From NCBI GenBank assembly GCA_002633005.1, contig NMRA01000117.1, forward strand, positions 727,894 to 791,893: 64,000 nucleotides of DNA. The letters run 5' to 3'. Positions 19,201 through 44,300 of this stretch are shown here, piece by piece. A program made the position numbers and the translations under genes. Numbering within the stretch: the stretch's first letter is position 1; the number at the start of each line of letters is the position of its first letter. The notes below the pieces were generated by a model. It saw only the letters and a list, made by a program, of their open reading frames with translations, did not search any database and had not been told where the DNA came from. This DNA comes from Phoronis australis (Eukaryota; Animalia; Phoronida).

Positions 19201-21051
19201 AACCCAGATATCACTTCCTACCCGCCTCAGTAAAGAACAAGTTGAGACTAATTTTATATCTGTAAGTGTTATGATTCAAAAGTTCGTTACCTATACAGAA
19301 CGTGGGTTTATAGAAGAGCTGAGATTAATTCATGCCTAAAAACTTAGATTTTGATTTTTCTAGGATCCAAACCGTTTTAAATGCAAGTAGACAAAATTAA
19401 ATATGATCTAAACGCAATTAACTGCATTAAATGTAATAAAAACAGACAGACTAAATTCAACATCATCTATACAGTCAGACAACAAACTGTGAACACTAGT
19501 TACCACGTCTCCACAAAACCCTATGCACACGTGCACATTGCATAACTTAATACGATTACAGCTGCCTACAAGCTACATCGCCATCGGTTCACTTGTTCAG
19601 ACAATTACCAGCAATGTGTGAGGAAAATGTCCCAGCCTTTAAGTGGGTAATTATAGTTTTGTGCCAAAAAACATTGTAACTTACCCATACTACCTGAAGA
19701 CTGAGATGTGTTGGGTGGTCCAGAATTGGTTTGCCAAGGAGGCATAACAGGAGGTGGCAACGATGTGGGAGGGATTAGAGGCGGGGGCTGTGATGTGGTG
19801 GGAGGAGTAAAGGATGATGACGTGTTCAATGACAGCAAAGAAGGCGGAGTCTGTTGAGGTGGTGGCTGGTCCCAAAGACTTCTTGGGGGAGGCTGGAACA
19901 AAACAAGATATAATTTGGCTGTCATTAAATGTTTTCAGATGCTCCTTATCCTAATCATCACTCCTTTGAGATGGGTAGACCAGTCATATTTTATTTTTGT
20001 TGCATTTTGACTTGGGCCTTACCAGTTGCATTATACTATACAAGTAACAAACAACCAATCTTCACTAGTTACACTCCAATACAAAAATGGCATCACAATA
20101 CAGGCACTTCCTGTAACAGAATCAATAGTAAACAAGAGCAACACGTACACCACAACAGACGACTATTGTTCCAAACATTCCCACTGTAAGCAATGCAAGT
20201 ACACTTAAAATAGCCTGTAAGAGGTGCAAAGTGAACCAGTGATGCTCTCCTCAATAGGAAAACACATGTCACCTCTAATCATTGCCAAAAAGAACATTCT
20301 GTTTCAATATACATCGGAACTCACCAGCGGTGTTGCGTTTGCTTGGGTGAGAGGAGGGGGATGACCACGTCCGAAAGCAGGTGGTGGCTGATCATTGAAC
20401 CGTGACTGTCTGAATGGGAGCCTATTTTGTGATGGGGGATTACTGAATCCACTTGACGTCTTGGTTGGAGGTGGAGGGCCTTCACCAAGTTCAGCCATCA
20501 ACGACATGTACTGAAAGAAAGACAAATCATCTATGGAACCAAATACATGACACACAGAAGCCATGAATACAGGCACTTGTCCTTCAGTGATATCTTTCTC
20601 AAAAAACTACTGGTCTTGGACAATGGGACAATAACATGAAAATAGTTGACCCTGGCTGGTGATTCCCGTCTCTAGTAAATCAAGCAAGAGTTAAGCTAGG
20701 AAATAGGCATACAAATTGAAATATGCAGACTGGCTTTGTAATCTGTTGTAACTTATAGTGATCAGAAACTGAAAACAGAAGTTAAAAAAATTTACACAGT
20801 ATATAGGTAGCCATTACGAGGATCGCTAAAGCCTGAGATCGCAACCACCAAACTATTTCCCAGACTCAACTAGAAAACCGACCAATCGCATAACACATTT
20901 TGACAGAATTTCCAACTTCAAGTGATGGGATTGGACAATTTTCGAGTTGAACTTAAGAAAAGTTTGGTGGACGTGAGCCCAGAGGAAAACTGGGCGAGTG
21001 CTGCTTCTCACTTCACTATCCATCTTGGCCTTGTCAACTGTTGAGGCAGGC
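16267..21051 (-). CDS. SF1: Second copy of SF1 3' exons (partial exon 8 and exons 9-12)
   Basis: Exons 21051-21012 (partial), 20510-20325, 19892-19685, 18593-18513, 16508-16267; near-identical translation and intact splice sites relative to the copy at 25048-28180; truncated at N 21052. Confidence 0.75.
16992..17999 (+). CDS. THAP-domain protein: N-terminal part of Kolobok transposase, lacking the DDE core
   Basis: C2CH THAP signature CCVPECTN...LHRFP...W...RVCGKHF...LKKDAIPSV, Ser-rich linker, CxxC...C..GH..W zinc-finger-like segment, then reads into the antisense of the second ORF. Confidence 0.8.
   Translation: MPHCCCVPECTNYRLTRALGVPLHRFPMDDTLRRTWLARVKNAALPVHATYKAVENYRVCGKHFLPSDYERDLYAELMKVPAKQRLKKDAIPSVLIPGSAPSPPPRSAFLKREASRAVASTVTGASGGTSSTVTRASERTPERAIPGTSSDSPCAVFSSPEPLSSPAAILSSGSDYRPSSTPSEEDSSSSSEQIGEPNFDKFIVDLSKVLELFRRCQVCGEGVTRHDVSSLGAQVTIQWECVAGHSGKWDSCSSVRGMPEVHLTMSSSGLASSNSEQHKHSIEVGITTHTVHLHQDVSLRLSSVAASFLSTAACACAYSASLYSGSNMYPPTECP
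17690..18085 (-). CDS. KolX-like / P2X7 ballast-domain-like Cys-rich protein, C-terminally truncated
   Basis: GYMFEPEY...SWCKCTVCVVMPTSMECLCCSE matches the recalled YxFEP...WCxCxxC..M....ECxCCxE motif of Kolobok KolX and P2X7-like intracellular domains; convergent to the THAP ORF. Confidence 0.75.
   Translation of the reverse strand: MAGVGDPYHSDSSVSDGDLVHSSGDEEFFHGHSVGGYMFEPEYNEAEYAQAQAAVERNEAATEDRRSDTSWCKCTVCVVMPTSMECLCCSEFDEAKPLLDMVKWTSGIPRTEEQLSHLPECPATHSHWMVT
18818..19173. repeat. ~65-bp minisatellite (5 copies here, 2 copies at ~25957-26134)
   Basis: Unit actgacagtttgttaatattgctcgagac...gtgtcatttcatgcaca repeated; copy number differs between duplicated blocks. Confidence 0.85.
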
Positions 21052-21052
21052 N

Positions 21053-22224
21053 TATCGGCTCACGCGCGCTTTGGGAGTACCTTTGCATCGCTTTCCGATG
21101 GATGACACACTTCGCCGTACTTGGCTCGCTCGTGTGAAGAACGCAGCGTTACCCGCAGCAGTGGAGAATTACCGTGTGTGTGGCAAGCACTTTCTGCCCT
21201 CCAGTTACAAAAGGGATTTGTATGCTGAACTGATGAAGGTCCCAGCGAAACAACGCCTGAAGAAGGATGCCATTCCGTCTGTGTTGATTCCCGGCAGTGC
21301 CCCGTCGCCACCCCCGAGAAGTGCGTTTTTGAAGTGAGAAGCCTCACTCGCGAGCTGTGGCCAGTACAGTGACTGGAGCCAGTGGAGGCACTTCATCTAC
21401 TGTCACTCGGGCCTCCGAACGTACCCCCAGAGCGTGCAATTCCTGGAACTCGTAGTGATTCGCCCTGTGCTGTTTTCTCCAGCCCAGAGCCTTTAAGCAG
21501 CCCTGCAGTGATATTGAGTAATGGGAGTGATTACAGGCCCAGTTCGACACCCACTGAAGAGGACAGTTTGTCGTTCAGTGAACAGATCGGTGAGCCAAAC
21601 TTTGATAAGTTTATTGTGGACTTGTCTATTTAGAACTGAGGTGCCAGGTGTGTGGCGAAGGAGTCACACGACACGACATAAGCAGTTTGGGTGCTCACGT
21701 CACCATCCAGTGGGAGTGTGTCGCGGGACACTCTGGCAAGTGGGACAGTTGTTCCTCTGTCCGTGGTATGCCGGAGGTCCACTTAACCATGTCCAGTAGT
21801 GGCTTGGCCTCGTCGAACTCTGAACAGCACAAGCATTCCATTGAGGTAGGCATAATAACACACACAGTGCATTTGCACCAAGATGTGTCACCACGTCTGT
21901 CCTCAGTAGCCGCCTCGCTTCTCTCAACAGCTGCCTGTGCCTGTGCGTACTCTGCCTCGTTATACTCGGGCTCAAACACGTACCCACCCACTGAATGTCC
22001 GTGAAAAAATTCCTCGTCACCACTGCTGTGAACAAGGTCTCCGTTACTCACACTACTGTCACTGTGATACGGGTCACCGACTCCAACCATTTTCAGCTTA
22101 CAACACACTGAACAATCCCTAAATCCAACGTAGTTGAGTTCTCTATTAACCTATCTTGCCGCAGAATACTCGCCGATGGAAAGTGGTGGCAACAATTGTT
22201 GAAAAACAGCACAAAACAAAAGTA
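21053..22224 (+). mobile_element. Second, degenerate internal fragment of the same Kolobok derivative, bounded by Ns
   Basis: Colinear with ~17027-18219; 15-bp deletion in THAP, premature TGA at 21335-21337, frameshifts; no TIRs; same THAP/KolX junction. Confidence 0.85.
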
Positions 22225-25047: not shown

Positions 25048-28000
25048 TTAGTTTGGTGGTGGAGGTGGAGGCCTTGATCCCAGTATATTAACAATGACAT
25101 CAAACTGGGATGGTGGCGGTGGAGGCGGAGCTACACCGAAGCTTGATGGTGGTGGAGGAGGCGGAGCCACAGGATTGGGCGGAGGGGGGGCATGGTGTTG
25201 TTGCCATGGTGGCAGGCTGCTTGGTGGCGGAGGCGGAGCTATCTGCCAAGGAGGCGGAATACTGCTTGGCAGGGACGTTGGTGGTGGCTCTGAAAAAAAA
25301 AGAGTGCAGGTGGTAAATAATAACACCTAAGCAATAACAGAATACAAACTCAATAATACAGCTTTTATGAAGTGTCTAAGAACACTACACTTGCATTGAA
25401 GTGAAAACAACCCTTGGAATATATTGCCAGACTGTAATAACAAAACCTGGCAAATGTGTGTTTGTGTGCGCGTGCATGNGAGTGAGTGAGCGAGCGAGCG
25501 AGCGAGCGAGCGTGTGTGTGTGTGTGTGTGTGTGTGTTCAGAATTACACGTCTTTAAACATTTGTTAGTTGCAGAGAACACCTTAATCAACAAAGGTATT
25601 TACTGTCACACTTCAGCAACATTTGACAAATAAACCAAACACTTACGTTGCCATGGAAACTGCTGTGACGACTGAGACGAGGGAGGTGGAGGAGGTGGTG
25701 CTGACAACAGTGATCGGGGTGGAACACCTGAAATGAAACAATTTTCAGTTGACGACAAAAAATGCGACAATAACGTGACTACTACATGTTAGAATCAATG
25801 GGACCCAAACTGCCATACTTCAAAGCTATTGCTTCTTCCAGCAACTTAAATTGGCTGTAAACCTGCCACTATATCATAATTTAGACTACTTGCCGCTATG
25901 TAATTGGTTTCAAATTGTTCCTCAGCCAATTGCAACTTAATTTCAGGGCTTTGAAATAACTGACAGTTTGTTAATATTGCTCGAGACTAGCCTCTTCAAG
26001 ATAACTAGTCATAGTGTGTCATTTCATGCACAGAGCAGTCTACGTAACTGACAGTTTGTTAATATTGCTCGAGACTAGCCTCTTCAAGATAACTAGTCAC
26101 AGCGTGTCATTTCATGCACAGAGCACAGTCTCCAGGAAAAAAAGAACCACGAGCATTTTGAAAACTCAGATATCACTTCCTACCCGCCTCAGTAAAGAAC
26201 AAGTTGAGACTAATTTTATATCTGCAAGTGTTCTGATTCAAAAGTTCGTTACCTATACAGAACGTGGGTTTATAGAAGAGCTGAGATTAATTCATGCCTA
26301 AAAACTTAGATTTTGATTTTTCTAGGATACAAACTGTTTTAAATGCAAGTAGACAAAATTAAATATGATCTAAACGCAATTAACTGCATTAAATGTAATA
26401 GAAACAGACAAGACTAAATTCAACATCATCTATACAGTCAGACACTGTGCCCACTAGTTACAACGTCTCCACAAAACCCTATGCACACGTGCACATTGCA
26501 TGCAATGTCTTTATAATCCTAACTTAATACGATTACAGCTGCCTACGAGCTACATCGCCATCGGTTCGCTTGTTCAGACAATTACCAGCAATGTGTGAGG
26601 AAAATGTCCCAGCCTTTAAGTGGGTAATTATAGTTTTGTGCCAAAAAACATTGTAACTTACCCATACTACCTGAAGACTGTGATGTGTTGGGTGGTCCAG
26701 AATTGGTTTGCCAAGGAGGCATAACAGGAGGAGGCAACGATGTGGGAGGGATTAGAGGCGGGGGCTGTGATGTGGTGGGAGGAGTAAAGGATGATGACGT
26801 GTTCAATGACAGCAAAGAAGGCGGAGTCTGTTGAGGTGGTGGCTGGTCCCAAAGACTTCTTGGGGGAGGCTGGAACAAAATAAGATATAATTTGGCTGTC
26901 ATTAAATGTTTTCAGATGCTCCTTATCCTAATCATCACTCCTTTGAGATGGGTAGACCAGCCATATTTTATTTTTGTTGCATTTTGACTTGGGCCTTACC
27001 AGTTGCATTATACTATACAAGTAACAAACAACCAATCTCCACTAGTTACACTCCAATACAAAAATGGCATCACAATACAGGCACTTCCTGTAACAGAATC
27101 AATAGTAAACAAGAGCAACACGTACACCACAACAGATGACTATTGTTCCAAACATTCCCACTGTAAGCAATGCAAGTACACTTAAAATAGCCTGTAAGAG
27201 GCGCAAAGTGAACCAGTGATGCTCTCCTCAATAGAAAAACACATGTCACCTCTAATCATTGCCAAAAAGAACATTCTGTTTCAATATACATCGGAACTCA
27301 CCAGTGGTGTTGCGTTTGCTTGGGTGAGAGGAGGGGGATGACCACGTCCGAAAGCAGGTGGTGGCTGATCATTGAACCGTGACTGTCTGAATGGGAGCCT
27401 ATTTTGTGTTGGGGGATTACTGAATCCACTTGACGTCTTGGTTGGAGGTGGAGGGCCTTCACCAAGTTCAGCCATCAACGACATGTACTGAAAGAAAGAC
27501 AAATCATCTATGGAACCAAAAACATGACACACAGAAGCCATGAATGCAGGCACTTGTCCTTCAAAGATACCTTTCTCAAAAAACTACTGGTCTTGGACAA
27601 TGGGACAATAACATGAAAATAGTTGACTCTGGCTGGTGATTCCCGTCTCTAGTAAATCAAGCAAGAGTTAAGCTAGGAAATAGGTATATAAATTGAAATA
27701 TACAGACTGGCTTTGTAATCTGTTGTAACTTATAGTGATCAGAAACTGAAAACAGAAGTTAAAAAATTTACACATTATATAGGTAGCCATTACGAGGATC
27801 GCTAAAGCCTGGGATCGCAACCACCAAACTATTTCCCAGACTCAACTAGAAAACCGACCAATCACATAACACATTTTGACTGAATTTCCAACTTCAAGTG
27901 ATGGGATTGGACAATTTTCGAGTTGAACTTAAGAAAAGTTTGGTGGACGCGAGCCCAGAGGAAAACTGGGCGAGTGCTGCTTCTCACTTCACTATCCATC

Positions 28001-31000
28001 TTGGCCTTGTCAACTGTTGAGGCAGGCGCAGCCTGCCCAGTCTGTTGCTGCATTTGGCGGAACGTGTCCCCCGGCCGCTTCTCCCGGCAGTCCTTGCTCA
28101 AGTGACCGGCGCCACCGCAGATGGTGCAGATGATTTGGTTGGTCACAATCTCTTGGGCCTCCTGAAGTTGCTTCAGTTTGCTGCACAGAAATAATGAGTG
28201 TTGGACCAGTTAACAATATGCTAACCTAAAACAACTATGGAAATCCCCTTACTGGTTACAACATTATACATAATCTTTTTAGTGCTCTCACCTTGTCCAT
28301 AACTTAACATCATTTTCCCCTCAACGCAATTACAGTAATAACTCTTGACACAACTTTCAAGAAAGTATGCAGTGTAACGGGTCTCAATTTCCACACTCAA
28401 AAAAGGCTGAGCACACGATTCAATTTGCAGAAGTAAGATCTCTTGAATAATTTAATGCAAAACAGAATTTTTGAATGCACAGCAAACAGATGTTTTGGAC
28501 AACAAACTTAACACTATAAACAAGATGGCGTGTGACACTCTCCATGTCGACATGCAACTACATACGCCAGTCCGTCACTCTCTCGCAGTGTGCCGTTGAG
28601 CAAGGCCAGCTGTCGCAGCTGTTTCCTTCGAAGATCGTTCTCTCCTTCGGGGACTTGAATGCCCTGTTCAATGATCTCACGAATCTGCAATCAAACAGTG
28701 GCAATCTCAGACAGAAGCCCCTTCACAATTTGTTCTCTTCAAACTGTCCAAAAGTGATGGATAACTTGATAAATGCGTAAAAAATAAACAAGCTCATTTT
28801 AAGATAGGTAGCTGTGTCCTGTACTAAAAATGTCTAATTTTTAACGTCACTCCCAAGGAGCTGTGATGACAGAGTCTTAAGGACAAAATCTTGTGGACAA
28901 CGTGTTGCCAGGACTTGTAATCAAACACACACTTTGCTGAGTGGCAATGTAAATCTCAGTACCATTATTACCCAACCATGGTCATACCTGATCAAAACTT
29001 GAAACCTGGTTACAAAATCTTGTGGACAACGTGTTGCCAGGACTTGTAATCAAACACACACTTTGCTGAGTGGCAATGTAAATCTCAGTACCATTATTAC
29101 CCAACCATGGTCATACCTGATCAAAACTTGAAACCTGGTTACAAAAAACTATAATGCAACATAAAGGTACAACATAATAACGTGATAACTAGTTAGCCCA
29201 CCTTGGCAGCAGCCAACTTGACGTTATCTGGGTTATTTGCCGTGATGTAAGCGTGTAAAGGCTCATCCTCGCCGGGAAGCGGTTGGCCCGCCTTGCGACC
29301 TATCTTGCCCTCCTTTACGGAACCTCGCCCACGAATAATGACTTTGGCACCAGTCTAAACACGACGAATACATCAGTGGGTTAGATAGCATCTGCTCACA
29401 TCTCAAGTACTCAGTACTCAACAATGTAGAAATCAAACAACTGTTAACAAATCAGCTGAAAGGGAAAATTACCCAACGCACAGGCAAAGTGGCAATTCTG
29501 TTCATTGACTCAGAAGCCATTTCCCAGAGAACCAAATGCCAGCTACATTTCTATGGTCATGCTAACACCAGAACATTTCTCAAAGAAATTACGCTAATTC
29601 TTTACTTATTCAGCACAAAATATCGCAAACTCATAGAATTTCATTTTGCCAACTTTCTCGAACAGAGAAGAAAACTCTTCATTGAAGTTCAACTGTTTAT
29701 GGCAAAGTCTCAGAAAAATGGAATTGTACCCTTTTGTGCAAAGAAACCGAATAATTACTGTAATGCCATTTTGCAACCTGGGAATGTTTTCAGACTTACT
29801 TCTTTCTCCAAGTCCTTTAGGGTGTTTCCTCTGGGTCCGATGAGTAGTCCAACAAAGTTGATATCTGGATGTTCTTCTTGAGGAATCATCACTTTGTCGT
29901 TCACACGCACCATGGGTGGCCTGGGCAATTAAAATAGACAACTGTTGCAGTTACGACTGACTACAGGAAGTAAGGAGAAAAACACCACTGGAGAGAACAG
30001 TGAAAGGAAAGAGTGCAGGTTGGCAATCACATCATTCAGGGTAAGTGAAATGTATTATGAATAACAAAAAAAACAACATAGGACAAATTTCAGACCAATC
30101 AGGAAACAGGAAATAAACCAACCAGCAAGCAATTATGTCCACAGCTGGATCGGTTAATGAACTCGAAACTTCTCTCAACAATGAGCTAGCCATTATCCAT
30201 GACTGGCTGATTCAAAATAAACTCACTCTTAACGTTAGTAAAACCAAGTCGATGCTGTTTGGAACCCACCAGAAATTAAAGCAACAAAAACTATCCCTTT
30301 CTATCAACGGTTCTCCCATCGAGAATGTTGACAAGTTTAAAGTACTTGGGCCTTATTTTAGATCCCAATCTTAAATTTAATATGCACATAGATCATATCA
30401 CAAAGAAATTATCAAAGAAAATCGGTGTACTTAAACGTCTAGGCAAATTTCTTAATGTCCGTACCCTTAAGACCCTTTACCATTGTATTATTCAGCCTCA
30501 TATTGATTATTGTTTACCGGTTTGGGGGCACACTAGTGACACACTTGTAAACAAAGTCCAAGTAATCCAAAATAGAGCCGCCAGGGCTATCCTGGGTACT
30601 AAAATTAGGGACACTAGGGTTGACGACTTGTACTCCAAGCTGGGATTTATGAAAGTAAGACAAAGAAATAAATATCTCTCTGCCTGTTGTATATACAGAT
30701 GTATCAATGGCTTGGCTCCAGCATATCTCAGCAGTAAATTCAATAGCAGTCAGGCTGTTTATTCTACACGTTCTTCTGTTGCTGGCAATGTTTCTTCTAA
30801 AAAAATTAAAACCGAGACTGGCAAGAGATCTTTTATCTATGCAGCTGCTATAATATGGAATTCTTTTAGCCCAGAAATTAAACGGTCCAACTCAATTACT
30901 ACCTTTAAAGTTAATGTTAAAAAGTGGCTGTAATTTACTTAACCTTTTATACCCTGCCTATCTTAATCATGTCATTTTTTCATTGTCGTAAATACTCTCA

Positions 31001-34000
31001 TTGTCTAGAGTCATCTCTTAATTTATTTCATCTGTCTTAGTTAATTTTTTACCATTATTTGTCATTTAGTTATTGTCTTAATTCTCAACCTTAACTGTTT
31101 TAATTGTATCTTTGTTACGTATATTTCATTGTTGTTTTATTACTTCATTGTATTATATTACTGTTTTTCTTGTTGAGGGCCCTCTTGGAAAGCAGTGCTA
31201 TCACTGAAGAGGCCACCCTCATTTTAAATATCACAATAAAAAAAAAATAAAAAAAGCTTCGGCACATGACTTTTCCTTCCGTATAAATATAAACTGGACA
31301 TCAGTAGCAAATAGTCTTTAGATATCAACAGTCTCAACATGACTCGGTCATGCCATCAGCATACAGCAACACACTGACCCAGTATGATAATGATAACCAT
31401 ATTCACTGTTTTGTCTTACAGTTTTAAAAGTCTTACACACTTAAAGGTAAAAAGGAAAATAGGAGGTTGTTTGAATACTGCTTAAATAGCAACAAAACAT
31501 GTGTACAAGTGGTGACCAAAGAAACAAATAATTTGTGGCTTTTCTTAAAGGGCAATGTTATCTTATTGAAGGTCGTTTTAGTCATGTTAAACATTTTACA
31601 CACTATAAAGGTATTTTTACTATTTAGTCGCTTTCTATTATAACGAAATAAAGAGCAGTTTCTTAAACCAGGAGTGTGCTGCAGTGCACACATTGCGGAA
31701 ACGTCATTTGGTCTAACTAAGATGTGTTCCCTTGCTTTTCAGTTGCTTTAACTACGCTCAAGGGCCATGACCCCAACAGATCAGTCCAAATGACATGACA
31801 ATTGACCTATTGCCAGGATTTTGAGTGACGGCTGAACTGACCATTTAAAATGCAGCATTATTGACACACCTTCGTTTCCAAGCCGCCATTTTACCCAACA
31901 AACAACACGTTGCCGGGTAAAACTTATTGTTTGTTAGTAGACATTATGCAAGGAGGCGGAGCTTGCGATAGGTCAATTAGTCTTTAACTTAAGCAGTGAT
32001 GAGGGAACAGGTAATAAAGGTAGTACAACAATGATTCAACTTGTCAGACACACAACATTTGGATTACACGACTCGCTTGGGGCATCTCAATTTAGGAGTG
32101 TTCTGGAGACCTAGTTTCCTACGACGAAAGCAAGATATCACAAAATCGTACATTTCGAGAGTATGGATGGGAGTTAACTAGCCTATCATAGCAAAATTGT
32201 GCCCACTGAAACGATTGGTCAGAAAGGTTGCAGAGTTGAATTCTGGGATTTAATGCACCGTTTCTGTTACATAAACAAAGCTTATTTCTTGCAGCCCTGG
32301 TTTGAAGGATTGCTAACATCAATTCGATAGATAAAAAAAGACTAAAACGATTGAAAATAACCACTAGAATGAAGGATGCCAAATAAACCTTCAAAAAAGG
32401 TAGCAATTACATCCAACTACGCAGTGGAAATTTGTCTAGGTTCCTCAAAGTTATGGCGTCCAACTTTGCAATGGAATTTTGCGGATTTATGATGCGAGAG
32501 AGATTTTGCCAACCTTTCTGATAACTACTGATAATCCATGGTTAAGGATTCGACATACTTGTAATCAGCGGGAGGCTTGTAGTCTTCGTTAAGCTGCAGG
32601 GCCTTGGTGACCAGTTCATGCCTTTCCTCCTCCAGACGTTTCCTAGTGCGGTACTCGCGGGTGTTCAGTCTCTTCCCTTCATTGTTGTAGATGGGCTCGG
32701 GTGAAGGCGATCTGGAAAGAGACCTGGCGGCATAAATGACAGATTTCAGAATACTCAACCGTCGTGCATAGTCCAAGGAGGAACGAGTATAAATCAACCC
32801 AACATTGGACTATATGACTCTCGGTTGAAACTGGTGTAGGTAACTATTTGTTTTCCACTGCACAGGTTTACGTTAAACACAGTTTGCAACAGATATCTTT
32901 TCAGTTAGAGCAAACATGTTGGGGTTTTCTGGTTAAAGTGAGATTGTGCAACACAGGCTTACAAAGTGACTAGTATGCTGGGAAATACAACTATTTCAAA
33001 ACCCAGACTGGTTTTGTTTTGCTTTCATCTCGAGTTGGTCAGAGGAAACGATTCAAGTCCTGAGACGAGGAGTCATGAAGCTCGGGTGGCACTGTTAGCG
33101 TGTTAAAACTACAAACTTGTCTAGTTTTTGGACTCCAAAAGCATCTGTAGTCTTTTTAACATGTGACGTTTCTATCCAGAAGACTTCTGACCACTTACAC
33201 CCGTGGAATGTTTTTTTGTAAGCACACTAAATAAAAGACAAGACTAAACTGAGCTGGCTAAAGAACAAGCTGCAAACCACGTTTAAGATGGAAAACATGT
33301 GCTTTAACCGGCGACCCACACGTCCGCGGACAACAAACCTTCGACTCTTACTACAGGTGTCGTCTGGTATCTAACCTATGGCGATCTGGAAGTTTTTAAA
33401 TTTGGATTAGGGTTACTTGTGAAAGGAAAAAGTGGTTTACAAAAAAGCATCACGTTCCTGCAATGAATTGATTAGATTATCGATTTTTGCTGGAAGGAAC
33501 ATTGAATTAGCCACACGACATTACCCTAAGCTACAAAATATTACGATCGTTACTTTATCGCCCCCAATCACATCCCCAGACTACATACCATACTCGAGCT
33601 AAAAACACTTTTGATTGACTAAAAAGCAACGACACTTTAGTAGAGCACAATTTTCAACTCAAACAAAACTATAGCACAGTGTTCAGAGACGTGAATGGTT
33701 TAAGTAATGATAGACGAACGTGCTATCCTGGAAAATTAGGTTAAGATGAAAACACATAAAATGACTGTACACATTACCTGGAAGGTGATAATGCAAGGCT
33801 GGTGTAAGTAAATAACAAATTACTGATCACCACAGCAGAAGAGATGAACAACATGACAAGACCCACTGACAAAACTGAGTTGTCCGACCAGCAACAATGG
33901 AATACTTTTCGTTAATAAAAATGCTGATTGCCATCGCCGAAAATAATTTTGTACATGCAAGCACCCATTGTGAAATTGTAAGCAAAGCAAGATTATGATT

Positions 34001-37000
34001 AAGATTCCTCAAGCAATCGGAGTTGAATTATGACAGACAGAAGGAAGTCGTCAAATTACAAAATTTGAGAGAAAGCAAGCATACTCTTGAGATGAGCTGG
34101 ACTTGCGTGGAGTACTTGAGCAACTACCGTGGTCTACCCAAACTTATTGGCACTAAGCCAACATTAGATTGCATTTAAAAGTTCAAATGACTCGTTTAGG
34201 ATAAACATAGGAGCCGGGCTAGCACTTTGATAAAAACATAAAATACACTGTTCTGCCAAGCAGGGTGCAGTTGGGTACATGTCAAAGCTCAGAACTAGCT
34301 TCGACTATCTGCGAAAGCATTGTGTGTAAGAATGGCTCGTGAAAGAAATAAGAAGTTGAAACTTGGAGAATTTATGCAACAAACCAACACATCTCTTCAA
34401 GTGTTGTTTCGAAGGACACTTCCATGCATTCTCTCGTATGTCCTCGCTGACAAGTTTCTTAAATCCCCGCGTCCAAATCTCATAGATATGACTTTCAAAA
34501 TGGAGACTTTTGAGACTTAACTGACGGAACATTCATTGAGAGATGTTAACACCCTAGCTAGGTCATTAACAAAATTCTTCATTTTGCATAGTGTACGAAT
34601 GAGGTTTGAACTTGCGCACATAACAAATACTTCCCATGGGAAATTTGAGGCTACAAAAATACACAAAGTGCTAGCGATGCATTCCCACCTGTAAACCATG
34701 CAGCGTCATGGCTAGTCAGCTCTAAATGAAGCCTGTGAATGGTGGAAGCATTCTTGAAACGTGATTTCCTTCTACAATTTCATTTCTGTACACAAATTAC
34801 TGGTTTTGATCAATGCTGGATTTATTGAAAAGATGACACAGGACATGAATGAAAAAAAAAAATGATAACAGAAAAGGAAGATAGCGCAAGGAAAGGAATA
34901 CCACGTGCTAATTAGTAATTCATCAGTTACTCAAGAAATCTAACGTATTATTTATCCAAAGCAATTTGAATACTTTGGCTTCCTTTTACACCACACAGAT
35001 CAGCTTAGATTGGCCCTTGCATTATCACCATATGTGATGTGGCTTGTCGCTGCCCGTAGGATAAATGAATAAGTCATTGGTACGGTGTAGACTTGCAAAC
35101 CTTTCTTCTGGGTTTGAAGGAATCCCGAGGTCACCTGAACGCAGCCGTCGACTAACTTCTTCAATCTGTAGGTGGACTGTGGGCATTAGGGTTAAAAGGG
35201 AAACAGAGTCCTGTTAATACATGTGACACAACACGACAATAGCATGACATGGACAAAATCAAATGGACAAGACAATCTTAACTGTTTCTCAAAGTTTATA
35301 TTCCAAATTCATTGTTGGATTGCTGGAATGGTACAGCATGTACTTCCACTGGTATTAATCTTTTTCACAAAGAATCAGATCCTTTTCATGTCTAAGAACA
35401 TTTTCGCAGACACGGAACGAGTCGATTTGGCTGAATTTGGAATATCACTTTAATCATAATTTTCAGAAATTTGAAATTTTTTAATTTGAAATGATGTTTC
35501 AAGCACCTGCTTTCGCTAGAAGACAATGTGCACCAAAGATGACTTTACCTTACCTGAAAATCTTAATAATCACCATTATGGAATACATCAAAAAACTGTG
35601 TCAATCAAAATTTAATCACAGGTCATCTAGCACACACATGCATAAAACGCATAACTGGCTTTCGCATAATCATGCAAACTGTTCGTTTATAACACATTAA
35701 CACAATTCACATTTCAAAACACAAGATCCTCATTTTATGCAATTACGCACCCATTTCCCGCAAATAGCAACAGTTGCTTAACAAAAGTTACAGATTAAAC
35801 AATAAAAGACACAAGTGGAAACAAATGAAGAAGACAATGGCTATAAATCTGACTTGGCACCAATTAGTAAAAATTCGTACACAATGCAATTAAATCTACT
35901 TATTAATTAAAATGTACAACAGTCAAGTCAAAATCGAATGTTGACTGATGAATTAGACTACAGTGAGAAGAAATTCTTAGCCACCTGAAAGGGCCCGTCT
36001 TGTTAGTATAGTTCATCAGTGTACATTTTAAAGCAATAACACAAAATATTTATCATCCTTGCAAAATGACAATAAAGAACAATTCACAATTATCTGTTGT
36101 CTTTACCTTGAAAAGTTAAGCTTTTGTACTTTTGGGAGGGAGAGGGGGGTTGGAAGAAAATACATCGTTTTGCGTACATCTTCAAATGGTGATAATTGTG
36201 AATAGTCCCTTAAGTCCTTTACATACTGACATACGAATTCCAAACAAAGGATTATTCACGACACTGCTGAAACATAGGTCCAGTCTAAGGAACTCCAAAT
36301 TACCTAAGTATTGGCTTTCTTGTTCAGAGGACAGTCCAGTGGGAATAACAGTCGGCATGCCCGGTATAAAAGTCTTTTCGGCCTCGTCCGACGCCCATCG
36401 ACTTTTCCTTTTCTTCTTCTTTTCAGCTGACTGCCACCCACCAACCTCTCCTACAACAGTCAGACAGGTTTACCCATCACAGAGTTCAGATCAAGTTGAG
36501 AAAATCACGCACACAGCATCACAAAAAACTCAGTTTATTACTCCATTGTCATACTTTTGACGACAAAATAATCACAGAGTTTCACTGGTTACAAATGAAT
36601 GTGTTCATTATGCAAAGTTTCCATCGACTGAGGTTTGATAACTCACAAGAGAAGTGATGGTATGTAATGTTTGTCAATGAGGGGCAAGAGCATGGGCTCG
36701 TCAACTTTTGGTATTAGTTTGTGGAATAGGAATAATGGGACGGGTGGTGGGAAGAGAAATTGCAATCAAAGGTGGACGGTTATTCATACTGGTTCTCTAA
36801 ATCAGGGACCACTACATCCCATGCCTTTTAGTATGGCCAGATAGCCAGGGATCCAGATCGGTGCTGAGGCGTGTTGAAACGTGGGAGGTCAGAACCGACG
36901 AGCTACAATGTTGGTTGGTCGCTGAAAGTTTCAGTGAATCTTCAAAGTGCAGAGGTTGAAGCAATATCAGTTATTTGACATATTTCTAGGAAATTTTCCA

Positions 37001-38001
37001 CAAATGTAATTAGGCCTACTAGAAGTAGGGCCTACTATACATGCTATATCTTGTCTTGTAATTCCCCGTGATTATTTGACGCAGCGCCATCTTGAGACAT
37101 ACTGATCTAAGGGTAGAAATCCACATAATTAAACGATCAGTTCTCAAGGAATGGTCGTATCACAGATGAAGAGAAAGAACATTGGAGTACTGTCCCGGGA
37201 CAATTATGACATAAAGCATAGAGGAGTTTGGAGCACACTCAGTTCACAGGTGTCCTCAGCTTCTGATCGTGCCCATTACACTATATATATACTACAAGTT
37301 ATGACACCAGGGACAAGGAATTCCACAGGTGGTTCACTTCAACCGTCCATATCAAACACAAAATTCAATAAATTTACACGAAACAGGGGTTCAGCAAACC
37401 ACGAGCAATTGTTCTTTCTTCTCATAGCATTAACAGTGGCCTGCTCCAGCGAGTTCGCATCAAATTCGTGGTCAAAGCACAAAATTCTTCCCCAAAAGCC
37501 GCTGCGTACTGTCAGTGTGCCAGAGCGGAATTATCAGATGTGGAGTTATTGATGTCATGACCTTCCGTGACAAATCGGTAATTTCCGTTTCTCACACTGA
37601 CAGTACGCAGCAGCTTTTTCGGAAGATTTTGTGCTTTGACTGCGAATTTGTTGCAAACTCGCTGGAGCAGGACACCGTAAATGCTATCACTCAGACAAAA
37701 GAACAATTTGTTGAACCTGTCTAGTCTTGACGTTGCGCAAACTTATGAAGTTTTGAGATGGACGGTTGAAATGAAGCACCCATGGAATTCCTATTTCCGA
37801 GTGTCATACCTTGTAGTATACAAAGTGTATTGGATTGGAGACGATCAGAAGTTGAGGTCGCATATGCCTCAGTTACGATCCGGGTGACCGGGCACAATTC
37901 ACGGCATTAACATGGGCATGTATAACTGACATAGCACTTAAACATACAGTTTCGGACTTTTTTAAACTACCTGATCCATCCTCAGACCGTCTTTTTAACA
38001 T
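25048..38001 (-). CDS. SF1: Splicing factor 1 / branch-point binding protein (ULM, SPSP, KH-QUA2, Zn knuckle, Pro-rich tail), 12 coding exons
   Basis: Exons 38001-37971, 36450-36304, 35176-35101, 32711-32559, 29920-29800, 29354-29202, 28684-28566, 28180-27988, 27487-27302, 26869-26662, 25727-25647, 25289-25048; all GT-AG with compatible phases; motifs [78 protein letters not shown]. Exon 1 ([11 protein letters not shown]) is inferred from phase and donor only. Confidence 0.95.
28883..29146. repeat. 129-bp perfect tandem duplication in SF1 intron 6
   Basis: acaaaatcttgtggacaacgtg...aaacctggtt occurs at 28883 and 29012. Confidence 0.9.
30131..31256 (+). mobile_element. 5'-truncated LINE (L2/CR1 group, Crack/Daphne-like), antisense in SF1 intron 4
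   Basis: RT C-terminal motifs [47 protein letters not shown]; frameshift near 30340; AT-rich 3' UTR, terminal stem-loop gagggccctctt...aagaggccaccctc, AATAAA and A-tail. Confidence 0.9.
33339..33385 (-). other. SF1: Candidate poison (PTC) exon in SF1 intron 3
   Basis: Minus strand: branch-like taaccctaat, acceptor cttccag|ATCGCCATAG (in-frame R-S-P-stop), possible donor GAAG|GTTTGT at 33339. Confidence 0.4.
33778..33798 (-). CDS. SF1: Candidate in-frame 21-nt SF1 microexon (adds SLALSPS before RSPSPEP)
   Basis: Minus strand ttgttatttacttacaccag|CCTTGCATTATCACCTTCCAG|gtaatg; phase 2-2, no stop; complementary to a box near the exon 3 donor. Confidence 0.55.
34986..35029 (-). promoter_or_regulatory. 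Intronic complementary box pairing with the microexon acceptor region 33784-33807
   Basis: 35015-35029 (ccttgcattatcacc) is the exact reverse complement of 33784-33798; 34986-34993 (ttacacca) is the exact reverse complement of 33800-33807. Confidence 0.65.
37246..37866. mobile_element. Foldback (long palindromic) MITE-like element in SF1 intron 1
   Basis: Arms ~290 bp: cctcagcttctgatcgt ... acgatcagaagttgagg with complementarity continuing inward to a ~35-nt loop near 37540-37575. Confidence 0.8.
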
Positions 38002-38356
38002 GATTCAACAGTACGTTCAATGCATATACAATAAAACGCAATAAAAACTTGAAGTTAATTTCATAAAATTTCCAAAGAATCGGCAATGGCGACAGACACG
38101 CAGCAGCCTCGAATTGGAAACGCATCTGAATAGTCTAGATGCAAAAACCTATAAATAATATCTTGTAAATTTTACGTATGTTATAACTTAAAACTACAAA
38201 ATTAATCTTTGTAAAACTTGTTATAATTAATATGATATTTTATGATAATTTTCATATTTTTAATCATTTTACGCTCTCTTGAGAGTAGAGATTACATCAG
38301 AAAATGGCGCATCCCATGTGTAAAACTTATGTTGTCAAAGTTTGAAGTAGTACAAA
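38002..38356. promoter_or_regulatory. Bidirectional promoter region shared by SF1 and POLR3A
   Basis: Divergent ATGs 355 bp apart; YY1-like AAAATGGCG at ~38301 and CAATGGCG at ~38084; AT-rich core 38145-38270. Confidence 0.75.
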
Positions 38357-41300
38357 ATGGTGAAAGAACAGTTTCGCGAAACAGACGTGGCTCGAAAAAT
38401 GTAAGATATTTTAGAGAGTATACCCATTCATGATAAGAGCAGTTCTCTTTCCGTCTATATAGAAAGTTTTCATGATTGCAAACCATCAGTTACATTAGGC
38501 AATTCCATTCACACAGTGACAGTCACAGGCGTCCTCCGCTTCTGATCGTCCCCAATACACTACATATAATACTTCAAGGTATGACACTCCCGACTAGAAA
38601 TTCCACGGGTGCTTCACTTCAGCCCTCCATAGCTAACATAAAACTCAATAAATTTACACAAAACAAGGTTTCAACATACCATTGGCAATTGTTCTTTCTT
38701 CCAATACCATTCATGGTGTCCTGTTCCGGCGACTTCGTAAGAAATTCGCAGTCAAAGAACAAAAATGTTCACAAAAAGCCAAACACACTTCCATCTGGGA
38801 CAGCTCGAGGTCAAGGACAGTACGGAAATTACCGATGAATTACGGATGGACGGCGTTATCAACATCGTGACTTTACGCTACAAACTGGCAATCTCCGTAC
38901 TGTCCTTGACCTCGAGCCGTAAAAGATGGAAGTGTGTTTGGGCTTTGTGTGAATATTTTTGTTCTTCGACTGCGAATTTCTTATGAAGTCGCTGGAACAG
39001 GACACCATGAATGGTATTGGAAGAAAGAACAATTGCCAATGGTTTGTTGAAACCTTGTTTTGTGTCAGTAGCAATCATTCAATCAGACATTGTCAGTAGC
39101 GATCATTCAATCAGACATAGTCAGTAGCGATCATTCAATCAGACATTGTCAGTAGCGATCATTCAATCAGACATTGTCAGTAGCGATCATTCAATCAGAC
39201 ATTGTCAGTAGCTTATGCTGAGTTCATTAGAAACATATGAAAACATTTTTAAATAGATGATGGCATCAAAGGTTAGAAAAACGTCAGAAATAAACATGTA
39301 AAAAATTTGATCCTGAAAATGTTTAGCTGTTAGTAGTCTTCTGCAGTACTTACCAAAAATAGTTGAATATTATTGTATTTCTGCTGCATGATGGAGAAAT
39401 AGTCTTAACAAAGCCAAAAATGATTTTATAAAAATTCTATTTGTGGAACAGTGAGTTTACCTTGGTATGCTTCAAGATTCCAAATCGTATTGTCTAAATA
39501 CAATTGGCATGTACTCTGTGTGTACTAAGTGTTGTTAACTCCTTTGCATTTCTCTACTATAGAAGCCATGTCACCTTTGGGTTAATGAGTCCTGAGCAGA
39601 TGAAACAACAAGCCCATGTTCATGTCGTCAGCAAGAACTTGTATGCTCAAGATGGTTCAAGGAAACCCGTGGAATATGGCGTACTTGACCATAAAATGGT
39701 AGGCTGTGATGGTCTGTGGTAATAGCTGATTTTGGAAATAGCCGCGCCATACTGAAATTCACTGTCTCGCCAGATGGCAATCAGGTCTTTGGTTGACAGG
39801 CATTCAGCGCCACCTACAGATCTCATGTTATGCAGACAAGAGGTTTAAATATGCTGGTATAAGCAGCGTGTTAACACTTTCCTACTATAGTATTGTCACT
39901 GATGTGTGGTGGGATGTGATAAGAGCGTACGCAGAAAGGCAAACCTTTTGAAATATCCATGGATGAAAGAAGTGTCCCATACAATTGTCATTGCAAAGAA
40001 GAATCTGTGGCTGCATAGTCAGTGGCTGTGACTCGTAAAACAGGATTAAGCTGGTATAAAATAAGCTAAAATAAATTAGTTAATTTTTAACCTAATCAAA
40101 CAATGGTATGGGCTGACTGTGGGATTTATTCCTCCGTGTTTAAGTTGAAGAATCACTATGTAGCAGTGAAATTCTGTCTACCGAATCTTGAGTCGCTGTT
40201 AAGCGAAAGTCAATTTCTCACTCTCATTACTCTTGAGAGCGCCAGTTTGAAAAGTACGCTATTGTTAGGCTATGCCACAGTGCATGCAAAATATAAAGAA
40301 CCTTTTGCATAGCAATATGAGCTCTTACCTCTTAGTATGGGTAGAAAATTCTCCAGTTCAGGCATAACATGTTGGTAAAGTTGAACTACATAATCCTGAA
40401 CATGTGCCTAGACACAAAAATATATTGGTCAATGGTGTGAAATATTCTGAAGTATATCGTGATTTATTGGCAACACTGTAATCTCAAAGTGGTCAATCAT
40501 AAATATCTTGTTTGATACACTGAATAGCTCACTTGCGAGTTTCTCGCTAGTCACTGTGACGTCACCGGAAAGGGGGCAAAACCCGCCATATTGCTCTTGT
40601 TTTGCCCCGAGTCTTTGCTACACACGCTAAAACTTACTGGAGTTCTTATGGTGAATTTTACGCTTAAAACGTTAAAACAACTTAAGATATGGTAGTTGGG
40701 TCGTGGAATAACTGTGAATAGACGAAGAAAATGTGACCTTGTTATGTTGTGCGAAGCTGTGAACGGACTGAAATTGGAACTTAACCCGCTCTAGGCCTGA
40801 ATGGCGCAGGCATACAGGGGCGATAGTGTATCCCCATAAAAAGATATTCACTTCACAATACAGTAAATAAAATCAAATGAAACTTGCATATGTGCACATG
40901 AAGTTATAATTAACGCATACCCTGACTCTGGACACAATTTAGTCTACAAATAACTTGAGCATATTCATGAAAACCTCGCGGTTCTCTCGAGTTTCTCTCA
41001 CTAGCCGCCATTTTGAGGAAGTCAGTTACGTGAAATCACGCCTGTTGACGAACAAAAAGTCCAAGGGACACAAATCTTACAAATTTCACTTGATATTTTC
41101 TCATGCTATTTTGCAAGTGTCACGCGCCAGGTCACGCGCCAAATCTCGCGCTTCGCTCAGTCTCGCGCTAGCCTTTGCCTCATACTCACCTGACTCAGTT
41201 GAAATACTTGATTGTGGTAATNTATCTCATGTAGCTAACCAATGCCTCAACACCATAGTTGTTCTATCTCATGTAGCTAACCAATGCCTCAACACCATAG

Positions 41301-44300
41301 TTGTTCTATCTCATGTAGCTAACCAATGCCTCAACACCATAGTTGTTCTATCTCATGTAGCTAACCAATGCCTCAACACCATAGTTGTTCTATCTCATGT
41401 AGCTAACCAATGCCTCAACACCATAGTTGTTCTATCTCATGTAGCTAACCAATGCCTCAACACCATAGTTGTTCTATCTCATGTAGCTAACCAATGCCTC
41501 AACACCATAGTTGTTCTATCTCATGTAGCTAACCAATGCCTCAACACCATAGTTGTTCTATCTCATGTAGCTAACCAATGCCTCAACACCATAGTTGTTC
41601 TATCTCATGTAGCTAACCAATGCCTCAACACCATAGTTGTTCTATCTCATGTAGCTAACCAATGCCTCAACACCATAGTTGTTCTATCTCATGTAGCTAA
41701 CCAATGCCTCAACACCATAGTTGTTCTATCTCATGTAGCTAACCAATGCCTCAACACCATAGTTGTTCTATCTCATGTAGCTAACCAATGCCTCAACACC
41801 ATAGTTGTTCTATCTCATGTAGCTAACCAATGCCTCAACACCATAGTTGTGCCTATTCTTAGGATATTCAAAGTTTTTACTTGCAACTGTGCCAGAATGA
41901 CAAGAATGTGAAAACTTTTATGTGGTTAACTTCCACATAGACATGTACTGGAGGATCATATATTTTGTGATGGAATGTATGAATTTCCAACCCAGACTTA
42001 AATCGTGTTTTTGTAGGGAACAAGTGAAAAAGACAATTCCTGTTTAACGTGCGGCAAGAACTTGGCAGAGTGCACCGGTCACTATGGTTACGTTGACCTG
42101 GAACTTCCTTGTTTTCATATTGGCTACTTCAGAACTATCATCAACATTCTCCAGCAAATATGCAAGGTTTGTTTTTGCGTATTGTGGTTATTGTAGTAAT
42201 GTTATATGTGAGTAAGGATTTGTTTTAATTTGCACATGTGTTTTAGTGTAGGAATGTCGTATGCTTGTGAGAAAGGATTTATTTTAGTTTTGTATGTACA
42301 ATGTGGTGAAGTTGTATGTGCATCTTTCTAACTTATAATCATCAAATGCTGAAAAATACAGCCTCGGATGGACTCTGGCGATACATGTTTAGTGGTCGGA
42401 ATGTGTTCTTGAGTAAGGTGCATGTGGTTTGGTACGGTAATTCTGTTGCACCTTGTTTAGTTCACAATATGTCGCACTCATGGTGAACACAACTTGGGAT
42501 TCCTACGCACAGGTTCAGCTGTTTCACATACTACAAAATCATGCCTCATTTTAACCACTTGATGTATCCTCTGCATACATTTCAGAATTGCAGTCGAGTT
42601 TTGTTACATCCCGACGATCGCGCAGGATTCCTGGAAATGTTGAAGCGACCGAATCTAGGTTACTTGCAGAAGAAAAGTTTACGAAAGAAAATACACGAAC
42701 GATGCAAGAAGAAAATGTCCACGTGCACTTACTGCAATTCTTACAATGGTCAGTTTTTTGTCTGTTAAAAGATGGTGATGAGGAATATGGTGAAGTTCAA
42801 CAGAAGTTGTTGGCATAGTCATGGAGGGTCACGCACTTAATTTGACAACTTTTGGCTATTTTCTTGTGATTTGTCTATTTCCTCATTTTGGTTTCATAGC
42901 AACTTAGTGGCCATTGTCTTAAGTACTCAAATTTCATTCATGTACAAGAAGATAAAAAGATTAGTACCTGTCACAAAATTAGTGTTCAATGCGAGGTTAC
43001 ATTTAAGTTCTGAAATACGACAGCATTTCTTTTTTCCAAAATTGTGCTATGTCGTACATGGAACTCGTTGGTAATAGTTTTGCCATGTAAAACATCTCAA
43101 GCTTGTTCTGTCTCATTTTGAAGATGGAATATTTTAAACCTTGGAAAGCACATGCAGTCTCGTCTTAAGTCGTTTTGAATCAAAGGCTACACTGCTTATT
43201 ACCACCTCGATGTTTATCTGACGTGTTTTTCTAGGGCAAGTCAAGAAGTGTGGATTGCTCAAAATTTCCCACGATAAGTACAAACAGAACCTCAAAAGAG
43301 AAGACGCCATCACGCAAGCGTATCTCAGTACATTTGACTTGGCTATTGAACAAAATAAAGACTTGGAACCTCTTCTTTCTAAAACACAGGTTTGTGTTGT
43401 AGTAGGAGCAAGCAATTGAAACTTGTATGAAAGGATTGGTGTGTCTTGCCCTAAACCTTTTTCTTATATTTTCTAACGATATCATAATGATGTTTCTTTG
43501 CATAAAATTAATGGAAAATGAAAATGAAAGTATTGCCACTGTCAGGCAATTAGGAAATGGACTGGATCCATACCTGAGCACAAAGGGCCCGTTTTATGAA
43601 AGGCTGCAAAACGATTGTAACTTTGATCTTAATATCTATGCAGTCCAAGAATGTGACTTGTGAAGGCGATTGTTAAGTTTGAATATAAAAAGTAATCAGC
43701 TTAATGTCACTTGAAACGTATCGGTCTGATGATGCAGCATTGTGTTTGCAATGTGCACCCGAGTGAACGATCTATGATAGAGTGAGCCCCGGAAGAAGAA
43801 ATGAGTTGGGGTTTAACGACTTTAAACGTAATTCCTTTGGCTGCTGGTATGTTGTAGGAGATGCTTAATCCTCTGGTAGTGTTGGACCTGTTGGCATGTT
43901 GTAGGAGATGCTTAATCCTCTGGTAGTGTTGGACCTGTTGGTATGTTGTAGGAGATGCTTAATTCTCTGGTAGTGTTGGACCTGTTGGTATGTTGTAGGA
44001 GATGCTTAATCCTCTGGTAGTGTTGGACCTGTTTGAACGTATTCCTGATGAAGACATCCCTCTACTGTTGATGAACACAGAGAATAATCACCCTAAAGAA
44101 TTACTGCTAACCCGTATACTAGTGCCACCTATATGTATTCGGCCATCGGTCGTCTCGGATCTCAAGTCAGGAACGTAAGGAGTCTGTGCCAAATTTCTTT
44201 ATTAATTATTTATTTGGTTAAACTTGAAAGAAAATCCCATTCTAATTAGTGATCTAAGTTTGTCTCAAGAAGTTTTGTAAGTGTAACCTGTGTATTATGA

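What the first reader, a model, noticed from the sequence alone, without database searches (positions are those of the whole stretch)
33778..35029. Long-range RNA pairing in SF1 intron 3 that covers a predicted in-frame microexon beside the SPSP phosphorylation motif
Seen: 35015-35029 is a perfect 15-nt reverse complement of 33784-33798, and 34986-34993 a perfect 8-nt complement of 33800-33807, ~1.2 kb apart. In the pre-mRNA 23 of 24 consecutive nt are paired, and these are exactly the end of a pyrimidine tract, the A of an AG acceptor (the G is the single unpaired base) and the first 15 nt of a 21-nt segment ending CAG|GTAATG. That segment is phase 2-2 and turns PEE-R-SPSPEP into [17 protein letters not shown]. 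The partner box starts 71 nt after the exon 3 donor. Established: the RSPSP motif of SF1 is phosphorylated and influences the SF1-U2AF65 complex; long-range intronic pairings can control splice-site choice. Inference: an RNA-structure switch that masks (or, by looping, delivers) a microexon adding an extra Ser-Pro to the regulatory motif of a core splicing factor. No transposon context is evident around either box.
Basis: partly seen in the sequence, partly recalled or inferred. Interest (0 to 1): 0.85.

Follow-up and report, generated by a model that had tools for sequence, protein, structure and literature searches.

The report
RNA clamp inside SF1's retained intron
Two short stretches 1.2 kb apart in an intron of the splicing-factor gene SF1 are exact complements and are predicted to pair over a hidden splice-site unit; RNA reads show this intron often left unspliced and show no sign of the proposed mini-exon, so the pairing likely helps tune SF1 levels rather than change the protein.

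Summary
The complementary boxes are exactly as described (15 bp + 8 bp), and a third, marginal 7-of-8 helix covers the internal donor. No shuffle of 3000 reached the 15+8 composite, but 61 of 1000 reached its energy, so chance is not excluded. The protein-changing microexon is unsupported: no joint to the 21-nt segment in three RNA runs (listing threshold 3 reads, shallow), no insertion at that junction in 193 SF1-search proteins, and the features of neural microexons are missing. The reads show something else: introns 2 and 3 are selectively retained (intron 3 at 30-43% of exon 4 depth) and the 76-nt exon 3 is skipped (9 vs 20 reads), causing a premature stop. That skip is published for human, mouse and zebrafish (PMC3176834 supplement), and both events appear in mRNA-like contigs of other animals. 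Best reading: a lineage-specific long-range helix that masks a cryptic/decoy splice-site unit inside SF1's old unproductive-splicing module. Conservation in close relatives could not be tested. New member of a known kind.

The parts
36304..36450 (-). SF1 exon 2 (carries the KRKSRW motif)
   Evidence: RNA joints 35176/36304 and 36449/37970 (cut +1)
35177..36303 (-). SF1 intron 2, partly retained
   Evidence: stranded depth about 4.6/5.5/5.2 in X2/X3/X4 (mean of 7 bins)
35101..35176 (-). SF1 exon 3, 76 nt, weak donor AAG|GTTTGC; skipping shifts the frame and gives a premature stop
   Evidence: joints E2-E4 3/5/1 reads vs E3-E4 13/5/2; translation
32712..35100 (-). SF1 intron 3, 2389 nt, selectively retained
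   Evidence: mean depth 11.0/7.0/6.3 (15 bins) vs exon 4 bin 29.7/23.7/14.6; first intron 4 bin 0/0/0; unique intron 1 bin 1.2/0.8/0.1
35034..35041 (-). Upstream box, outer arm: 7 of 8 complementary to the internal donor stretch 33777-33770
   Evidence: duplex and MFE folds; ensemble probability only 0.09-0.27
35015..35029 (-). Upstream box, main 15-nt arm
   Evidence: pair probability 0.72-1.0
34986..34993 (-). Upstream box, inner 8-nt arm
   Evidence: core pair probability about 0.4 (37 C) to 0.9 (18 C)
33800..33807 (-). Downstream box, 8-nt arm over the bases before the internal acceptor AG
33784..33798 (-). Downstream box, main 15-nt arm = first 15 nt of the 21-nt pseudo-exon
33778..33798 (-). 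21-nt AG/GT-flanked segment (pseudo-exon or decoy; in frame if included; inclusion not seen)
   Evidence: sequence, translation, no joint listed
33770..33780 (-). Internal donor-like site CAG|GTAATG, the only site in intron 3 with 7 of 9 matches to the U1 consensus (exon 3's own donor has 5)
   Evidence: consensus motif recalled
32559..32711 (-). SF1 exon 4 (starts with the SPSPEP motif)

Best explanation
The two boxes are predicted to form a long-range RNA helix that likely hides a cryptic (decoy-like) splice-site unit in the middle of SF1 intron 3, an intron that RNA reads show is often retained next to a skippable, frame-shifting exon 3. Shown: complementarity, the 21-nt AG/GT unit, retention of introns 2 and 3, skipping of exon 3, the weak exon 3 donor. 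Inferred: once the downstream box is transcribed the helix covers the internal acceptor and exon body (and at times the donor), keeps the unit out of mRNA and loops out 1.2 kb, half the intron, which would favour productive exon 3-exon 4 joining; opening it would expose the decoy and push transcripts towards retention or skipping, lowering SF1 output. The retention/skipping module is old and shared among animals; this helix would be a lineage-specific add-on.
For: Composite pairing of 23 bp in 0 of 3000 shuffles, the largest among the 24 complete intron-3 sequences of 400 nt or more examined (window 23, next 18; L076, 394 nt, and shorter ones left out). Main helix probability about 1.0. The paired stretch abuts the only 7-of-9 donor-like site of the 2389-nt intron and the upstream box has complements to acceptor side, body and donor. 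Intron 3 depth is 30-43% of exon 4 depth, intron 4 and intron 1 unique bins are near zero; joints into exon 4 total 29 reads against 73 for exon 4-5. Exon 3 skipped in 9 reads, joined to exon 4 in 20. Of 21 mRNA-like contigs among 80 loci, 8 keep intron sequence before exon 4, 2 skip exon 3, 11 are fully spliced, and none of the 80 shows intron 3 spliced with intron 4 kept. Same 76-nt skip-to-stop event listed for human, mouse, zebrafish. Human conserved complementary regions are enriched over cryptic and inactive splice sites.
Against: Duplex energy is reached by 61 of 1000 shuffles and matched or exceeded by 5 of the other 23 introns (two of them identical). No conservation or compensatory change could be shown: no close relative was available, and no distant intron aligned with the window's. 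Retention occurs in species where no such helix was found (L022), so the helix is not required for it. No joint to the internal sites was listed, whereas true decoys leave rare joints (those needed NMD inhibition). Donor-like sites with 7 of 9 matches occur in 13 of the 24 other introns screened. No read-level or experimental evidence that the helix forms in cells. Library type and tissue are not on record.
Confidence: 0.45

Rival explanations
1. Chance or neutral complementarity: an A+T-rich inverted match, or the relic of a small inverted duplication, that happens to lie over one of the many splice-site look-alikes of a 2.4-kb intron. The retention and skipping are real but independent of it.
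For: Energy test p about 0.06 (61 of 1000); whole-window search makes a lone 15-mer unremarkable (my estimate); donor-like sites are common; not conserved in distant animals; retention without the helix in other species.
Against: 0 of 3000 for the 15+8 composite; third arm on the donor; position 71 nt from a demonstrably regulated donor and on the strongest internal donor.
Confidence: 0.3
2. One reading: the helix gates a real, in-frame 21-nt microexon that adds 7 residues with an extra Ser-Pro just before RSPSP, in a tissue or condition not sampled.
For: AG and GT at the right places, frame kept, no stop; the insertion point is in the flexible linker that holds the phosphorylated SPSP motif; RNA test shallow (about 18-19% of each run read; joints under 3 reads are not listed).
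Against: No joint or in-between letters listed in X2-X4, and the X1 contig joins exon 3 to exon 4 directly. None of 120 search hits and none of 73 cluster members listed has a short insertion between the exon 3 and exon 4 residues; one camel model, P0117, has a longer unrelated insert, and many short hits lack exon 3 altogether. The 7-residue isoform differences in hemichordates lie elsewhere. No UGC near the acceptor, no CUAAY, AG-free zone only 22 nt. One 21-nt unit in three is in frame by length alone.
Confidence: 0.12
3. RNA bridge or loop-out only: the helix shortens the intron or brings a distant protein-binding site next to exon 3 (as in ENAH), and its overlap with the pseudo-exon is incidental.
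For: Upstream box 71 nt from the weak exon 3 donor; mouse Sf1 NMD exon is regulated by Rbfox2 binding on both sides; ENAH-type bridges listed.
Against: No binding site was identified here; the three arms match the acceptor side, body and donor of one unit.
Confidence: 0.1
4. Both boxes are copies of a dispersed repeat end or of a DNA-level factor-binding motif on opposite strands.
For: A 12-bp look-alike inverted pair (11 of 12 identical) lies in intron 3 of L022/L029; opposite-strand motifs are a known artefact.
Against: Single copy of each box in 64 kb at up to 2 mismatches, 3 matches at 3 mismatches against 1.9 expected; repeats in this gene draw two-strand read piles while the boxes do not; no Rfam match. 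Whole genome not held.
Confidence: 0.03

Closest known systems
Vertebrate SF1 76-nt exon skip linked to a premature stop (PMC3176834, text passages and supplement rows; mouse Sf1 NMD event in PMC3967051, passages)
   Same: Same gene, same exon length, same outcome (skip, frameshift, stop); seen here in reads of the window's species and in contigs L049, L067.
   Different: Seen here in an invertebrate (protein closest to brachiopod and mollusc SF1, about 81%), together with retention of both flanking introns; the paper's rows give no RNA structure. That their exon is exon 3 is inferred from gene and length.
Human SF1 exon 9-10 long-range structure (Pervouchine 2012; original not held, seen through PMC6027157 and PMC8052449 passages)
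   Same: Same gene; intronic complementary boxes said to prevent intron retention.
   Different: Different intron (9-10, about 100 nt apart, conserved in mammals, tested); here intron 3, 1.2 kb apart, untested.
Decoy exons in retained introns: SF3B1 intron 4, OGT intron 4 (PMC6097662 first part; PMC11507684 passages)
   Same: Short cryptic AG/GT unit inside a retained intron over 1 kb in a splicing-factor gene, rarely or never spliced in.
   Different: Known decoys are deeply conserved, leave rare joints under NMD block and bind U2AF; none shown here. Masking by a long-range helix was not in the passages read.
BRD2/BRD3 complementary regions and SF3B3 concealed branch site controlling poison exons (PMC10789245 abstract; PMC11162794 passages)
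   Same: RNA structure tuning unproductive splicing; independent acquisition of structures.
   Different: There the exon is a poison exon that is included; here the covered unit is in frame and not seen included, and the unproductive events are skipping and retention.
Neural eMIC/SRRM4 microexons (10.1101/2021.02.24.432780 passages)
   Same: Size 21 nt, frame-preserving.
   Different: Lacks nearby UGC, CUAAY branch motif and long AG-free zone; no inclusion seen.

Membership tests
Conserved long-range intronic RNA structure (PCCR type) | Stable complementarity of 10 nt or more between distant intronic boxes | tested here: met
   15 bp + 8 bp, duplex -36.9 kcal/mol, main helix probability about 1.0
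Conserved long-range intronic RNA structure (PCCR type) | More than chance | tested here: inconclusive
   0 of 3000 (composite length) but 61 of 1000 (energy)
Conserved long-range intronic RNA structure (PCCR type) | Conservation and compensatory changes in orthologous introns | tested here: inconclusive
   Only distant animals available (80 loci); no alignment to the window intron; one look-alike in L022/L029 in reversed order, absent from related L015, matched by 56 of 2375 control 15-mers
Conserved long-range intronic RNA structure (PCCR type) | Disrupting and restoring mutations change and rescue splicing | not testable with these tools
   needs a minigene
Decoy exon in a retained intron | Host intron over 1 kb and selectively retained | tested here: met
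   2389 nt; depth 30-43% of exon 4, intron 1 and 4 unique bins near zero
Decoy exon in a retained intron | Paired 3' and 5' splice-site-like sequences around a short cassette | tested here: met
   CAG, 21 nt, GTAATG; strongest donor-like site of the intron, modest acceptor
Decoy exon in a retained intron | Rare joints to flanking exons, best under NMD block | tested here: inconclusive
   none listed at a 3-read threshold in shallow samples
Decoy exon in a retained intron | U2AF binding; deletion abolishes retention | not testable with these tools
   needs CLIP and reporter
Neural eMIC/SRRM4 microexon | 3-27 nt, frame-preserving | tested here: met
   21 nt
Neural eMIC/SRRM4 microexon | UGC close to the acceptor, CUAAY branch motif, long AG-free zone | tested here: not met
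   nearest UGC 37-39 nt upstream, no CUAAY in about 50 nt, upstream AG at -26 (read; features)
Neural eMIC/SRRM4 microexon | Inclusion in mRNA of neural tissue; conserved peptide | tested here: inconclusive
   no joint in 3 runs of unknown tissue; no such insertion in 193 proteins, none from a close relative
SF1 exon-skip AS-NMD event | 76-nt exon whose skipping gives a premature stop | tested here: met
   joint 36304/32711 in 3/5/1 reads; stop after 15 shifted codons
SF1 exon-skip AS-NMD event | Skipped form stabilised when NMD is blocked | not testable with these tools
   shown for the mouse Sf1 NMD isoform, not for this species

The most novel reading that the evidence does not exclude
One upstream RNA strand clamps acceptor, body and donor of a hidden in-frame 21-nt exon; when the clamp opens (neurons, temperature, slow polymerase) the exon is included and adds a third Ser-Pro beside the phosphorylated RSPSP motif, so that a single RNA switch links SF1's animal-wide retention/skipping circuit to a new phospho-isoform of a core branch-point factor.
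Probability: 0.1. Interest if true: 0.72.

Novelty: new member of a known kind. Interest (0 to 1): 0.4.

Why it matters
If the helix is functional it is a second, independently evolved long-range structure in SF1, in a different intron from the known human one, and a compact test of whether RNA structure can switch a decoy exon off. The side result may matter more: skipping of the 76-nt exon 3, listed for vertebrates, and retention of its flanking introns are seen here in an invertebrate and in contigs of several other animals, with a weak GTTTG donor in 13 of 25 introns screened. This points to an old dosage-control module of the branch-point protein. Eight literature searches listed no paper on an SF1 intron 3 structure or on this module outside vertebrates; subscription papers are mostly not covered.

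Tried and rejected
Whole genome not held, so no genome-wide repeat count. No indexed RNA holder was listed; three raw-read runs under the same species label were laid instead. The 7-residue length differences among Ptychodera and Saccoglossus isoforms looked like the microexon but lie in the proline-rich region. The L022/L029 look-alike pair first looked like a compensatory change; it is a local hairpin in reversed order, has no donor after it, is absent from related L015, and 56 of 2375 control 15-mers score as well: treated as probable chance. None of the 19 variant positions listed in intron 3 falls in the boxes, but only about 0.4 were expected: uninformative. Depth shows no drop downstream of 33778, so use of the internal donor as an alternative exon 3 donor is not a major event; depth is somewhat higher downstream in all three runs, which 3' bias explains and no joint supports otherwise. 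Rfam: no match. A search with exon 8 found no close relative (7 hits among 28 candidates, best full-length identity 72%). Earlier findings of the scan: none. Full 2.6-kb partition fold timed out and was redone on 33700-35180. Saltzman 2008 and Pervouchine 2012 are not held; they are recalled or seen through other papers only. Supplements not seen may bear on human SF1 intron 3: PMC6097662 file 5, PMC3176834 file 1, PMC3967051 (none held), PMC11162794 (cut).
Full report
Observation. The window holds an SF1 (branch-point binding protein) gene on the minus strand; exon 4 finds 971 SF1-type proteins among 988 candidates, and the spliced frame is closest to brachiopod and mollusc proteins at about 81%. 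Both complementary pairs are exact. RNA joints fix exon 3 at 35101-35176, intron 3 at 32712-35100 and exon 4 at 32559-32711, so the upstream box begins after 71 intron bases and the downstream box covers the first 15 nt of a 21-nt segment between a CAG and GTAATG. Folding adds a third arm, 35041-35034 on the donor stretch 33777-33770, 7 of 8 pairs. In the ensemble of 33700-35180 the 15-bp helix is essentially always formed, the 8-bp helix at about 0.4 (37 C) or 0.9 (18 C), the donor arm at 0.25 or 0.09.

More than chance? Mixed. A perfect pair of 15 or more arose in 8 of 1000 shuffles of the intron, the two-helix composite of 23 in 0 of 3000, but the duplex energy in 61 of 1000, and five of 23 other animals' introns have equal or stronger best duplexes. 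The composite statistic was designed after seeing the data. In favour of meaning: the only site in 2389 nt with 7 of 9 matches to the donor consensus (recalled motif) lies 7 nt from the helix, while exon 3's own donor has 5 of 9. Such sites are common in general (13 of 24 other introns). The boxes are single-copy in the window, draw no two-strand read pile as the repeats in introns 1 and 4 do, and match no Rfam family.

The microexon test. Three stranded RNA runs under the same species label (about 18-19% of each read) and one contig set were laid on the locus. Exon 3 joins exon 4 directly in 13, 5 and 2 reads; no joint to 33798 or 33778 and no in-between letters were listed (the wider lay, hides 30 lesser joints). 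Joints under 3 reads are not listed and tissues are unknown, so low or tissue-restricted inclusion is not excluded. None of 120 hits or 73 listed cluster members shows a short insertion at this junction, though none is a close relative and many short hits lack exon 3. Features described for eMIC-dependent exons (passages) are missing: nearest UGC 37-39 nt upstream, no CUAAY, AG-free zone of 22 nt (read). The linker with the SPSP motif is flexible and phosphorylation has a small effect on RNA binding (PMC3553976, passages), so an insertion would be tolerated, but nothing shows that it is made.

What the reads do show. Exon 3 is skipped in 3, 5 and 1 reads; at 76 nt this shifts the frame to a stop. 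Intron 3 is covered on the sense strand at mean depth 11.0, 7.0 and 6.3 against 29.7, 23.7 and 14.6 in the exon 4 bin; intron 2 at about 5; the first intron 4 bin at 0 and the unique intron 1 bin at 1.2, 0.8 and 0.1. Joints into exon 4 total 29 against 73 for exon 4-5. Retention of either intron brings a stop. So introns 2 and 3 are selectively retained around a skippable exon.

This module is old. [quoted passage not shown] Among 80 metagenome loci (the best 80 of 137), 21 are mRNA-like (exon 4 onward uninterrupted): 11 fully spliced, 8 with intron sequence still before exon 4 (L007, L022, L029, L032, L037, L064, L071, L076; L022/L029/L037 encode the same protein, so 6 distinct), 2 with exon 2 joined to exon 4 (L049, L067); none of the 80 shows the reverse pattern. 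Some of these could be DNA of intron-poor species (L076 above all); for L022 and L007, related genomic loci such as L014 and L039 do have intron 4. Named protein models that begin out of frame or in intron 3 fit the same events (P0038, P0176, P0148, P0163; my reading of their starts). The exon 3 donor is GTTTG in 13 of 25 introns screened.

Conservation of the boxes. Not testable properly: no genome and no close relative. No distant intron aligns with the window's. The look-alike in L022/L029 is treated as probable chance. Retention in species without such a helix shows it is not needed for retention as such.

Mechanism. Best reading (0.45): the helix masks a cryptic or decoy splice-site unit and loops out half of a retained intron, favouring productive exon 3-exon 4 splicing; opening it would lower SF1 output. 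It works like the human SF1 exon 9-10 structure and conserved complementary regions over cryptic sites (PMC6027157, PMC8052449, passages), inside a setting like the SF3B1 and OGT decoy exons (PMC6097662 first part; PMC11507684 passages), and parallels BRD2/BRD3 and SF3B3 (PMC10789245 abstract; PMC11162794 passages). Membership in these classes is open, since conservation, rare joints and mutagenesis are lacking. Rivals: chance 0.30, coding microexon switch 0.12, plain bridge 0.10, repeat or DNA motif 0.03. Also read without bearing on the result: PMC4174434, PMC4281565, PMC5062968, PMC6547761 (passages).

Verdict. Observation confirmed and slightly extended; the microexon interpretation is unsupported though not refuted; the pairing sits in an intron that is demonstrably regulated. 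New member of a known kind, interest 0.40.

Noticed in passing
window 32712-32725 (minus): A second AG lies 12 nt upstream of the exon 4 acceptor; its use would add 4 residues in frame just before SPSP. No joint listed.
   Followed up: partly
window 35177-35200 and exon 3 acceptors of L001, L013, L015, L022, L039, L043, L046, L061, L070, L078: The exon 3 acceptor has its pyrimidine run upstream of a CTAAY/TTAAC-like motif that sits close to the AG, in many animals: a possible SF1 self-binding site for autoregulation of exon 3.
   Followed up: no
window 20000-21060 and 26990-28060: A near-identical copy of SF1 3' exons and introns lies about 7 kb downstream next to single N bases: partial duplication or assembly artefact.
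   Followed up: no
window 30280-31200 and 31700-32180 (SF1 intron 4): A reverse-transcriptase-like fragment on the + strand and a high-copy element with two-strand read depth over 200.
   Followed up: no
window 36990-39050 and 16720-18430: Long inverted repeats of a transposon-like kind, in SF1 intron 1, upstream of the gene and elsewhere.
   Followed up: no
window 20957-22150: A THAP-like zinc-finger ORF on the + strand and a cysteine-rich ORF on the - strand (family names recalled, not scanned).
   Followed up: no
window 41200-41850 and 60500-63700: Tandem arrays, a 14-residue repeat in translation and a 62-nt unit with a palindrome.
   Followed up: no
L011 about 1480-1540: An mRNA-like SF1 contig with about 15 extra in-frame residues between exons 2 and 3.
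   Followed up: no
L021, L024-L026, L047 intron 3: Two 12-14 bp inverted pairs shared among closely related loci whose introns are 85-95% alike overall, so not informative on selection.
   Followed up: partly
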